Source of the DNA: an uncultured archaeon
GTDB lineage: Archaea; Asgardarchaeota; Thorarchaeia; Thorarchaeales; Thorarchaeaceae
Assembly: GCA_964558645.1 (NCBI GenBank)
Contig: CAZLEV010000001.1
Location: 6,469-29,467 of the forward strand
Direction: 5' to 3'
Length of the DNA: 22,999 bases
Of the stretch, positions 3,719 to 6,019 are shown piece after piece; within the stretch, counting starts at the first letter, position 1, and each line of letters opens with the position of its first letter. Made by a program: the position numbers and the translations under genes. The notes under the pieces were generated by a model that saw only the letters and a list, made by a program, of their open reading frames with translations, ran no database searches and was not told where the DNA came from.

Positions 3719-6019
3719 ATGGAACCGCCAAACAACGAGATCATTGTGCCAGCATCGGTAACCCATCCGATATTGCTAGGGGTTGCGCCAGCTATGTTAC
3801 AGTCCGTTCCAGAGGATTACGCACTGGCCAGCCTCTTGCTTCGTATTCTCCAAGCTCGTGATGCCGACGAGTTTGAGTTTCTAATGAAAGCGTATCTGCC
3901 TATCTCCATAGAGCCTGGCGGGTCTGGTCAACTAGCTCTTGTTGAACGAATTGGTCTCTCTGCTGTTTCATTTGCCCCTGTTTCGAGATTCCCCCTGAAA
4001 GACCCTGATTTGTCCAAGGTGACGAGTCCTGATGATCTGCTCACAGTTCTGAACGAGATAGTTGAGGACCTATCTCAAGTTGAACGGAAAGAGGCAGTCA
4101 CCGTATTAGGTCTACTTCATGGCAGAATGGCTCAAGGTGCAGTGGCAACTCTCAACCTGCCAACAATCGAATCGATTGAACCCTATGCGGTTGAACTCCC
4201 GGCCATGTTGGAGAGTGGGAATAATGATCCTCTCTCGCAACTACTGGCCACAGCTTACGAACTGAATCGTTCACGTGAACTAATTGAGTTAGTGAGTTGT
4301 TTAGAACATGCAGTCCAATCTGTTCTTGAAGGACAGAACGAGGGACAGATTGCCAAGATTCAGAGACTGACCACCAGAATAGAACATCTGAGCAGAGAGA
4401 TATCTGCCATCGAGTCCCGCATTCAGGCAATTGACGACGAAGTGGGACCTAGGCAAAAGGAGCTTGGGGAACTCCTGAAGAAAAGACGACAGGCACTGGA
4501 ACGCGATCAGAAACGCCGAATCGAGCTGACTGAAGGCAACAAGGATGCCACCAAGGCCCTGAACCAAGCCCTTGGGAGACTCAGGAAGTCGGTTGATAGG
4601 GTTATGGGCATCTATCGAGATGTTGAGGAACAACTTGATGAGATACTGGTAGATTCAGATGATGTTCCCACAGTTGAGGGTCCTCTATCCCTATTCATTC
4701 CTTTGTATCTTTTCGGCTTTTCAAAGAAGGGTGTGCTGCAAGTCAATGTCATACCTCCACTCCATCATCAGGAGACTGGTCAGAAGGTTGGTCTGATGCG
4801 CGACTTCGTCGATACGTTGAAACCAATGAACGACGGTCTGGTTGGGATTGCCTCTCGCCTTGAGAATGCGATAGATAGCAATCCCTCCCTGATGCAGCAT
4901 ATCAGGGTCTTATCTCGCACAAAGAACCTCCTTTCACTTGAGATTACACGCGAGCTGATTCGTGAAGGTGGGTCATTGCTTCTTGCCGAGGCTGTGGCCA
5001 GAGATTCCGCCATTCAGAAGCTTGATGAACTACTCCGGGGAATACCGTCCAAGAAGATGGATCTCGAGGAGCAGGACATCCTGATTCTACCGGATGACGG
5101 TACAGGCACCAAAATCACGTTTCACATTTCTGATCAAACAGGTACGCCTGTAGAGCGTGCTCAGTTGCATATTGCGGGCATGAACATCACTTCTGACAGT
5201 ATGGGGCGGGCGGTGGTTCGTCTCCCGCAAAACACTTACAGCGTTCGAGTCGTAGCTCGTGGCTTCAAGACAAAGAGTCTTGATTTCTCGATTCACCGAG
5301 AAGGATCACTCTCGATACCAGTCAGACTCACAGCCATGACGCGGGAGGAACGATTGCACGAAGCGCTGGGTGAGCTGGAGGCACGAGCGGACGACATTGA
5401 CCATATCAGAACGCGGCTTCGAGACGTCTTTGATAGACAGGGCGAAACCATCCTGAGGATTCCCACTCACCGGGACGCGTTGGAAGACCTTCTGATTGAC
5501 CTTGGCTACAATCCTGAGGTTTGGATTACAGAGGCCAAGAAACGTAAAGGAATGGTGAAGCGTCTTCTGGAACGGGATGACCGGCGTGATGCGCTGAGGA
5601 GAGACATTCTCAGAATGGCCGAGCAATCTGAAGAAGTGGGTGGTGTGATGCTCCTCTCGCATGTGATGGTGAGAATGGATGATCTCGGATGGGATGCTAA
5701 TGCCGATGAGATCGAAGACGTCCTCAAGGAACTCGCCGACGACGGGCTGATAGAGGGCATCTCTGTACTAAAGACTGGTGCCAAGATTGTGAACTTCGTT
5801 CCTGTAGAACTGACAGATGACCCTCAAGCTGTGATCAGTCTCGCATCTAAGCGCTCCGGAATGCTCACAATAGAAGACATCGTGGCGACTCTTGGTTGGA
5901 CGGAAGGAAGAGTGATGAACGCTCTTGACCTACTCGTTCAGAATGGCGTTGCAAAGCGGCAAAAGAGCTTCTCCAAGAGCACAAGATACTGGTTCCCAGG
6001 TTTCAGGGAGAAGAGATAA
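3719..6019 (+). CDS. ESCRT-II Vps22/Vps36 (EAP30)-domain protein with a long N-terminal extension (coiled coil + PEGA/carboxypeptidase-regulatory-like beta-sandwich), 766 aa
   Basis: ATG 3719 follows GAGGGG (the track starts at TTG 3707). The C-terminus (~5340-6010) follows SNF8/Vps22: IRTRLRDVFDRQGETILRIPTHRDALEDLLIDLGYNP, GGVMLLSHV, VPVELTDDPQAVISLA...GMLTIEDIVATLGWTEGRVMNALDLLVQNGVA...YWFPG. Coiled coil ~4260-4650; beta-sandwich ~5105-5335 (ITFHISDQTGTPVERAQL...YSVRVVARGF). Confidence 0.85.
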   Translation: MEPPNNEIIVPASVTHPILLGVAPAMLQSVPEDYALASLLLRILQARDADEFEFLMKAYLPISIEPGGSGQLALVERIGLSAVSFAPVSRFPLKDPDLSKVTSPDDLLTVLNEIVEDLSQVERKEAVTVLGLLHGRMAQGAVATLNLPTIESIEPYAVELPAMLESGNNDPLSQLLATAYELNRSRELIELVSCLEHAVQSVLEGQNEGQIAKIQRLTTRIEHLSREISAIESRIQAIDDEVGPRQKELGELLKKRRQALERDQKRRIELTEGNKDATKALNQALGRLRKSVDRVMGIYRDVEEQLDEILVDSDDVPTVEGPLSLFIPLYLFGFSKKGVLQVNVIPPLHHQETGQKVGLMRDFVDTLKPMNDGLVGIASRLENAIDSNPSLMQHIRVLSRTKNLLSLEITRELIREGGSLLLAEAVARDSAIQKLDELLRGIPSKKMDLEEQDILILPDDGTGTKITFHISDQTGTPVERAQLHIAGMNITSDSMGRAVVRLPQNTYSVRVVARGFKTKSLDFSIHREGSLSIPVRLTAMTREERLHEALGELEARADDIDHIRTRLRDVFDRQGETILRIPTHRDALEDLLIDLGYNPEVWITEAKKRKGMVKRLLERDDRRDALRRDILRMAEQSEEVGGVMLLSHVMVRMDDLGWDANADEIEDVLKELADDGLIEGISVLKTGAKIVNFVPVELTDDPQAVISLASKRSGMLTIEDIVATLGWTEGRVMNALDLLVQNGVAKRQKSFSKSTRYWFPGFREKR

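What the first reader, a model, noticed from the sequence alone, without database searches (positions are those of the whole stretch)
3719..6019. ESCRT-II Vps22/36 domain carried on a ~540-aa N-terminal extension
Seen: the last ~225 aa track SNF8/Vps22 motif by motif, including the helical segment before the tandem winged helices and the terminal YWFPG. In front lie an alpha/beta region split by a ~130-aa coiled coil (KAYLPISI...coil...LFIPLYLFGF...VIPP) and a beta-sandwich. Established: Vps22 is about 250 aa, whereas Vps36 adds an N-terminal GLUE membrane/ubiquitin-binding module. Inference: this may be an independently evolved Vps36 analogue, with a rod-like targeting arm, that pairs with a short Vps22-like paralogue. 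That would be ESCRT-II subunit specialisation within archaea.
Basis: partly seen in the sequence, partly recalled or inferred. Interest (0 to 1): 0.8.

Follow-up and report, generated by a model that had tools for sequence, protein, structure and literature searches.

The report
Long-armed Vps22 paralogue of Thorarchaeia
This Asgard archaeon carries a second, much longer copy of the membrane-sorting subunit Vps22 (ESCRT-II), joined to a large archaeal head-and-rod module of unknown target; the fusion is real and conserved, and I found no paper describing it, but some close relatives have lost it and its role is inferred, not shown.

Summary
Real and conserved. ORF 3719-6019 (766 aa, Thorarchaeia) ends in a Vps22-type core (helical domain plus two winged helices). 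Its profile matches human SNF8 at E 3e-20 and no Vps36 chain. In front lie a transthyretin-like sandwich and a ~440-aa head-and-hairpin module that also occurs as stand-alone proteins in Bathy-, Loki- and other archaea. The fusion is in 75 of 86 genomes of the family, a sister family and Asgardarchaeia, so it is no artefact. The short partner at the ESCRT locus is a Vps28-steadiness-box/Vps22 fusion (already published) that lacks the helical domain. The long gene is cleanly deleted in five near-complete relatives, so it is not an obligate subunit. One Asgardarchaeum genome has it as its only full Vps22. Extra Vps22 paralogues are common across Asgard, and a 2025 preprint already calls one Loki copy 'VPS36'. 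Best reading (0.5): an accessory, probably homodimeric ESCRT-II stalk whose arm replaces the N-terminal helix and brings Vps25/ESCRT-III to a second site without ubiquitin. Binding is untested. The scan found this family before on other genomes.

The parts
3719..6019 (+). Gene for the long Vps22 paralogue, 766 aa (P0001)
3734..4270 (+). N-module, first half of the alpha/beta head and helical part (aa 6-184; YLP motif at 59-61)
4271..4645 (+). Two long helices read as a coiled-coil hairpin (aa 185-309; helices 185-237 and 243-309), inserted in the head; about 85 aa shorter than in stand-alone family members
4646..5053 (+). N-module, second half of the head (aa 310-445; FIPLY, PP, N-x-L and G-x3-L conserved family-wide)
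5054..5107 (+). Flexible linker (aa 446-463, pLDDT under 50 at 450-459)
5108..5338 (+). Transthyretin-like / CarboxypepD_reg beta-sandwich (aa 464-540)
5339..5578 (+). Vps22-type helical domain (aa 541-620), lacking the first helix of canonical Vps22
5579..5806 (+). Winged helix 1 (aa 621-696), net acidic
5807..6004 (+). Winged helix 2 with terminal aromatic-F-P motif (aa 697-762); most conserved part of the protein
2220..3362 (-). Conserved divergent neighbour (about 375 aa, Asgard-wide, no Pfam family); marks the syntenic site
1376..2419 (-). Arf-like small GTPase with an N-terminal extension (true start probably near codon 65); conserved neighbour
6082..6867 (+). YdjM-like membrane protein, conserved downstream neighbour in the family

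Best explanation
An accessory ESCRT-II stalk subunit. Shown: an old Vps22 paralogue (helical domain plus two winged helices) is fused, through a transthyretin-like spacer, to a whole member of an uncharacterised archaeal head-and-hairpin family. The fusion replaces the first helix that canonical Vps22 proteins carry. Inferred: winged helix 2 binds the genome's single Vps25 as Vps22/Vps36 do. The retained helical domain dimerises, most simply with another copy of itself, because the short Thor copy has swapped that domain for a Vps28 steadiness box. The N-module docks on a partner or membrane site, and its roughly 8-10 nm hairpin acts as a spacer or oligomerisation rod. The result would be a second, ubiquitin-independent way to bring Vps25, ESCRT-III and Vps4 to a membrane, beside the steadiness-box route of the short copy. 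It works like Vps36 in layout but is not a Vps36.
For: Whole-core match to SNF8/Vps22 and top Foldseek hits 3cuq_A, 2zme_A, 1u5t_A. The core is the most conserved part: 78-83% column identity against 51-67% for the arm. Residues D701, E719, W727, F759 and P760 are near-invariant across long, short and canonical Vps22, and the long form keeps canonical G641, F693, T/S699 and R731 that the short copy changed. The helical-domain HMM gives 22-41 bits for Thor long forms and 0 or less for short forms, and its first 10-18 positions are missing in the long forms. The genome has Vps25, Vps4 and ESCRT-III and no ubiquitin or free Vps28 was found (93% complete; Hatano 2022 reports that Thorarchaeota lack ubiquitin). 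In Asgardarchaeum G001 the ESCRT locus has Vps25, Vps4 and ESCRT-III but no Vps22, and the long form is the only Vps22 with a full core found. Heimdall Vps22 homodimerises (PMC9192718). No transmembrane segment (maximum hydropathy 1.6) and an acidic winged helix 1 (mean net charge -6.9) fit protein binding better than DNA binding.
Against: No binding was shown. The gene never sits in the ESCRT locus. Stand-alone relatives of the arm have no ESCRT-linked neighbourhood and occur in lineages without ESCRT-II, so nothing ties the arm to membranes. The gene is dispensable in at least five Thor genomes. The G001 argument rests on one genome that is 93% complete. In Asgardarchaeia the helical domain scores only 5-12 bits.
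Confidence: 0.5

Rival explanations
1. One reading: a convergent Vps36 analogue that forms a heterodimeric stalk with the short steadiness-box Vps22, bridging the arm's target to ESCRT-I-like steadiness-box proteins and two Vps25.
For: Both genes co-occur in most Thor genomes and carry complementary N-terminal modules; the winged helices are 26% identical and clearly homologous; the domain order mirrors Vps36. Odin Vps22 is monomeric and was suggested to need an unknown partner (PMC9192718).
Against: The short copy lacks the helical domain. Five near-complete genomes lost the long gene and kept the short one. G001 has the long form with no short locus copy. Thor Vps22 self-interacts in yeast two-hybrid.
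Confidence: 0.25
2. The Vps22 core has been recruited away from ESCRT and serves as a protein-interaction module of another scaffold, for example with the neighbouring small-GTPase operon, or with the GCS2-ligase gene pair that follows it in basal lineages.
For: Stable divergent linkage to the GTPase cluster across the family. In the sister family and in Asgardarchaeia the gene is followed by a ~220-aa gene and a 1139-aa GCS2-domain gene. Other off-locus Asgard Vps22 paralogues carry varied N-termini.
Against: The neighbours persist unchanged when the long gene is lost. The GCS2 pair lies elsewhere in this genome. The terminal Vps22 signature is fully kept.
Confidence: 0.18
3. A nucleic-acid or chromosome protein: winged helices bind DNA or RNA and the hairpin acts as an SMC-like arm.
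For: Weak hits to RTP, MarR and TrmB; long coiled coil.
Against: The ESCRT-II match is 17 orders of magnitude stronger and spans the helical domain. Winged helix 1 is acidic and winged helix 2 neutral. No ATPase motif or conserved catalytic set appears in the arm.
Confidence: 0.07

Closest known systems
Eukaryotic Vps22/SNF8/EAP30 (PDB 2zme_A, 3cuq_A, 1u5t_A; Pfam PF04157)
   Same: Helical domain plus tandem winged helices, aligned over the whole core (E 3e-20).
   Different: The first helix is replaced by a 540-aa extension; the gene is accessory and lies outside the ESCRT locus.
Eukaryotic Vps36/EAP45 (PDB 2zme_B, 3cuq_B)
   Same: Layout of targeting module, helical domain and two winged helices; weaker fold match.
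   Different: No GLUE, PH or NZF hit; no sequence-profile hit at E up to 1; the arm is an unrelated archaeal family.
Canonical Asgard Vps22/36 (asCOG cog.002769; Hatano 2022 PMC9192718; Makarova 2024 PMC10936438)
   Same: Same family, with signature residues kept.
   Different: About 240 aa and encoded beside Vps28, Vps25 and Vps4; the long form is a separate lineage in both trees.
Thorarchaeia steadiness-box Vps22 (KXH75178; Makarova 2024 Table S3)
   Same: Same genome; homologous winged helices.
   Different: Vps28-type steadiness box instead of the helical domain; sits at the ESCRT locus; kept in the five genomes checked that lost the long gene.
MK-D1 'VPS36' with an N-terminal OB fold (bioRxiv 10.1101/2025.11.01.685982)
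   Same: Same concept: an Asgard EAP30 paralogue with an independently gained N-terminal module.
   Different: Different lineage and a small OB domain instead of the 540-aa arm.
Uncharacterised ~540-aa archaeal head-and-hairpin family (ESM Atlas clusters in Bathyarchaeia, Thermoproteota, Promethearchaeota, Thorarchaeia)
   Same: Homologous to aa 6-446 (TM 0.52-0.66; HMM E down to 1e-19).
   Different: Stand-alone, or fused to a longin-like or zinc-ribbon domain; longer coiled coil; no Pfam family and no known function.

Membership tests
Vps22/SNF8 (EAP30) family | Pfam EAP30 score above the gathering cut-off | tested here: met
   28.4 against 26.8 bits; 70 bits for the sister-family orthologue P0185
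Vps22/SNF8 (EAP30) family | Tandem winged helices with terminal aromatic-F-P motif | tested here: met
Vps22/SNF8 (EAP30) family | Helical domain before winged helix 1 | tested here: met
   aligns to SNF8 from residue 31; 22-41 bits to the Asgard helical-domain HMM
Vps22/SNF8 (EAP30) family | Free basic N-terminal helix (membrane binding in human Vps22, from my own knowledge; paper not held) | tested here: not met
   HMM positions 1 to about 10-18 are unmatched and the beta-sandwich joins directly
Vps22/SNF8 (EAP30) family | Binds Vps25 in an ESCRT-II complex | not testable with these tools
   Vps25 is present in the genome; binding needs an experiment
Vps36/EAP45 | N-terminal GLUE (split PH) domain, with or without NZF fingers | tested here: not met
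   No such Pfam hit at E up to 1; no Cys-rich fingers in the sequence; the region is homologous to another archaeal family
Vps36/EAP45 | Core closer to Vps36 than to Vps22 | tested here: not met
   Profile hits Vps22 at 3e-20 and no Vps36 chain at E up to 1; Foldseek ranks three Vps22 chains first. No tree with eukaryotic sequences was built.
Vps36/EAP45 | Heterodimer with Vps22 | not testable with these tools
   Needs co-expression
Canonical Asgard ESCRT-locus Vps22 | Encoded beside Vps25, Vps4, ESCRT-III and Vps28 | tested here: not met
   the short copy holds that place
Carboxypeptidase D / transthyretin-like domain | About 80-aa beta-sandwich | tested here: met

The most novel reading that the evidence does not exclude
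Thorarchaeia split ancestral ESCRT-II into two specialised subunits: a steadiness-box Vps22 that links to ESCRT-I-like proteins, and this long-armed subunit. The two form a heterodimeric stalk, a convergent and ubiquitin-free parallel to the eukaryotic Vps22/Vps36 split, and the arm is a previously unknown archaeal membrane- or cargo-targeting module whose stand-alone relatives extend to Bathyarchaeia.
Probability: 0.22. Interest if true: 0.8.

Novelty: new variant of a known kind. Interest (0 to 1): 0.55.

Why it matters
[quoted passage not shown] It also shows that the published statement that Asgard genomes have a single Vps22/36 gene (PMC9192718) is too simple, and that Vps36-like layouts arose several times. 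Finally, the fusion gives a first functional handle on a widespread, unnamed ~540-aa archaeal family.

Tried and rejected
Complex prediction of the long core with the short copy: no answer (score 0.01); not used as evidence either way. Fold searches of the N-module against the PDB gave only generic coiled-coil matches; the globular head was barely tested, so a new fold is not claimed. The AU test did not reject Thor long plus Thor short as one clade (p 0.25), so a Thor-specific duplication is not excluded, although both careful trees separate them. The FastTree grouping of long forms with Loki off-locus paralogues did not survive the careful trees; treated as long-branch attraction. My first Vps28 profile contained the genome's own short copy and was redone without it. 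The third EAP30 hit in the genome (C16) lies in a 690-aa ORF that I read as MCM from its sequence, and was rejected. A suspected likeness between the arm and gene 9143-9904 was not supported. The first phylum search missed the Asgardarchaeia long form; it was found by the N-module profile, so other divergent long forms may still be missed. No RNA holder listed. Im and Hurley 2008 was not held (one search was a wrong id), so statements on the Vps22 first helix and the Vps25 interface rest on my own knowledge. No eukaryotic sequences were available for the trees.

Full report
Observation. The + strand of 3719-6019 encodes 766 aa without a stop. Pfam places EAP30 at aa 564-745 above its cut-off and a CarboxypepD_reg sandwich at 469-537. 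Human SNF8 is the best solved-structure hit over aa 551-761. A 26-sequence profile of the C-terminal part matches human SNF8 at E 3e-20 and yeast Vps22 at 1e-12 across helical domain and both winged helices; the next winged-helix protein scores 0.003 and no Vps36 chain appears. The AlphaFold model (pLDDT 82) gives a split alpha/beta head, two long helices at 185-237 and 243-309, a floppy linker, the sandwich and the Vps22 core. Foldseek ranks three Vps22 chains above Vps36. The rmsd to them is 13-15 A, so the relative orientation of the core domains in the model is not reliable.

Reality of the fusion. Fifty-one full-length homologues were found, and those with names are Thorarchaeota. The long form is in 75 of 86 genomes of the window's family and in the one sister-family genome. 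The same three-part architecture occurs in Asgardarchaeia. Contigs from two other studies bridge both domain junctions with no joints; run X1 may be the source of this DNA and is not counted.

The arm. Residues 6-446 fold confidently alone (pLDDT 89.6, pTM 0.78). They are a whole member of an unnamed archaeal family: stand-alone proteins of about 540 aa in Bathyarchaeia, Thermoproteota, Loki- and Thorarchaeia, ~700-aa versions with a weak longin-like N-terminus in another Asgard family, and a zinc-ribbon-tailed paralogue in this genome (C8:6215-7888). Conserved residues are mostly Pro, Gly and hydrophobic, with no evident catalytic set, and the fused version has a shorter hairpin. PDB searches returned only generic coiled coils. 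The stand-alone genes show no ESCRT-linked neighbourhood. So the 'targeting' role of the arm is inference only.

The short paralogue. It lies at C2:53585-54469 beside Vps25, Vps4, ESCRT-III and a zinc-finger/PH protein. Its first ~70 residues match Vps28 (yeast Vps28 E 0.005; Pfam VPS28 in 11 of 21 members; Asgard Vps28 profile E 5e-15), and it scores 0 bits or less against the Vps22 helical domain, where the Thor long forms score 22-41. Makarova 2024 already lists this steadiness-box fusion. In many other Asgard lineages Vps28 lies close upstream of Vps22, and no free Vps28 was found here, so the short copy probably arose by deletion-fusion of the two genes (inference). The long form kept the helical domain but lost its first helix to the fusion.

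Evolution. Most Asgard families sampled hold two or three Vps22-like genes, with off-locus copies of 220-600 aa. In trees of the winged helices (71 sequences) and of the whole core (51 sequences), Thor short copies nest with locus Vps22 genes of other lineages (80/83 and 94/86), while Thor and Asgardarchaeia long forms group together apart from them (85/70 and 83/63). A tree of the arm joins the same two groups, along with one stand-alone sequence (0.96). One old fusion is the simplest reading; transfer between the two classes is not excluded, and the AU test does not reject a Thor-only duplication (p 0.25). In the sister family and Asgardarchaeia the gene is followed by a ~220-aa gene and a 1139-aa GCS2-domain gene. 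In the main family it lies between a divergent GTPase cluster and ydjM-gltX.

Dispensability. Five genomes that are 95-99% complete have the two flanking genes 220-600 nt apart on one contig, with no remnant, and keep the short copy. Conversely, Asgardarchaeum G001 has ESCRT-III, Vps4 and Vps25 but no Vps22 or Vps28 at the locus, and the long form is its only full Vps22 found (one genome, 93% complete). The first pattern argues against an obligate heterodimer, and the second suggests the long form can serve as the stalk without the short one.

Mechanism. Shown: domain content, conservation peaking in the core, retention of the Vps22 signature, no transmembrane segment and an acidic winged helix 1, and no ubiquitin found in the genome. 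From established knowledge: Vps22 and Vps36 form a stalk that binds two Vps25, which recruit ESCRT-III; Heimdall Vps22 does this as a homodimer (PMC9192718). Inferred: the long protein forms an accessory stalk, probably a homodimer, whose arm chooses the site (0.5); a heterodimer with the short copy (0.25); a role outside ESCRT (0.18); nucleic-acid binding (0.07).

Novelty. I found no paper describing this architecture. Hatano 2022 states a single Vps22/36 gene, Makarova 2024 notes variable paralogue numbers and domain organisation without this form in the text or the supplement passages I could read (large tables are cut), and a 2025 preprint names a Loki OB-fold paralogue 'VPS36'. The concept of an Asgard Vps36 analogue is therefore already in print, and this is a new variant. 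Earlier agents of this scan reported the same family on other genomes; I read their conclusions only after my own analyses of the family. Interest 0.55.

Noticed in passing
G000 C2:49325-54469 (L001, L004): ESCRT locus of this genome: zinc-finger/coiled-coil/PH protein, ESCRT-III, Vps4, Vps25 and the steadiness-box Vps22; no free Vps28 or ubiquitin found in the genome.
   Followed up: yes
L193:10643-13987 (G001 C10): In an Asgardarchaeum genome a zinc-ribbon-Yip1 membrane protein gene occupies the place next to Vps25 where Vps22 and Vps28 normally lie.
   Followed up: partly
L035:9849-13990, L071:10374-15753, L073:10347-15701: In the sister family and Asgardarchaeia the long gene is followed by a ~220-aa gene and a 1139-aa GCS2-domain protein; in Asgardarchaeia a CDC48_N-vWA gene follows on the other strand. 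In this genome the pair lies at C5:12381-16483. Possibly a peptide-tagging system.
   Followed up: partly
   Followed up: partly
L051:6327-8453, L055:5455-7566, L068:5034-7196: The head-and-hairpin module occurs as ~700-aa proteins with a weak longin-like N-terminus in Asgard family f14.
   Followed up: partly
G000 C8:6215-7888: Stand-alone 557-aa paralogue of the arm with a C-terminal zinc ribbon.
   Followed up: partly
window 643-1266 (-): Conserved coiled-coil protein with a Pro/Glu linker and a C-terminal CdvA/steadiness-box-like hairpin (Pfam CdvA E 0.001), downstream of the GTPase gene; a possible ESCRT-I-like partner.
   Followed up: no
window 1376-3362 (-): An Arf-like GTPase with an N-terminal extension and a ~375-aa Asgard-wide unknown protein form a conserved pair that persists when the long gene is lost.
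   Followed up: partly
window 6879-7706 (-): Only the last ~100 codons (Cys-rich, acidic tail) look like a real conserved gene; the rest is antisense to gltX.
   Followed up: partly
window 202-495 (+): Tail of a longer ORF that starts before the window (C1:5734-6963) with a winged-helix-like start, Lys-rich repeats and helix-hairpin-helix repeats.
   Followed up: no
window 9143-9904 (+): Conserved 253-aa basic protein with no Pfam hit, downstream of gltX; not detectably related to the arm.
   Followed up: partly
window 15069-15314 (+): Archaeal histone-like gene next to a ThiI-like gene (read from the sequence only).
   Followed up: no
window 17000-22999: One search lists only short ORFs in this stretch on either strand; it may hold a long gene running off the window end, which I did not examine.
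   Followed up: no
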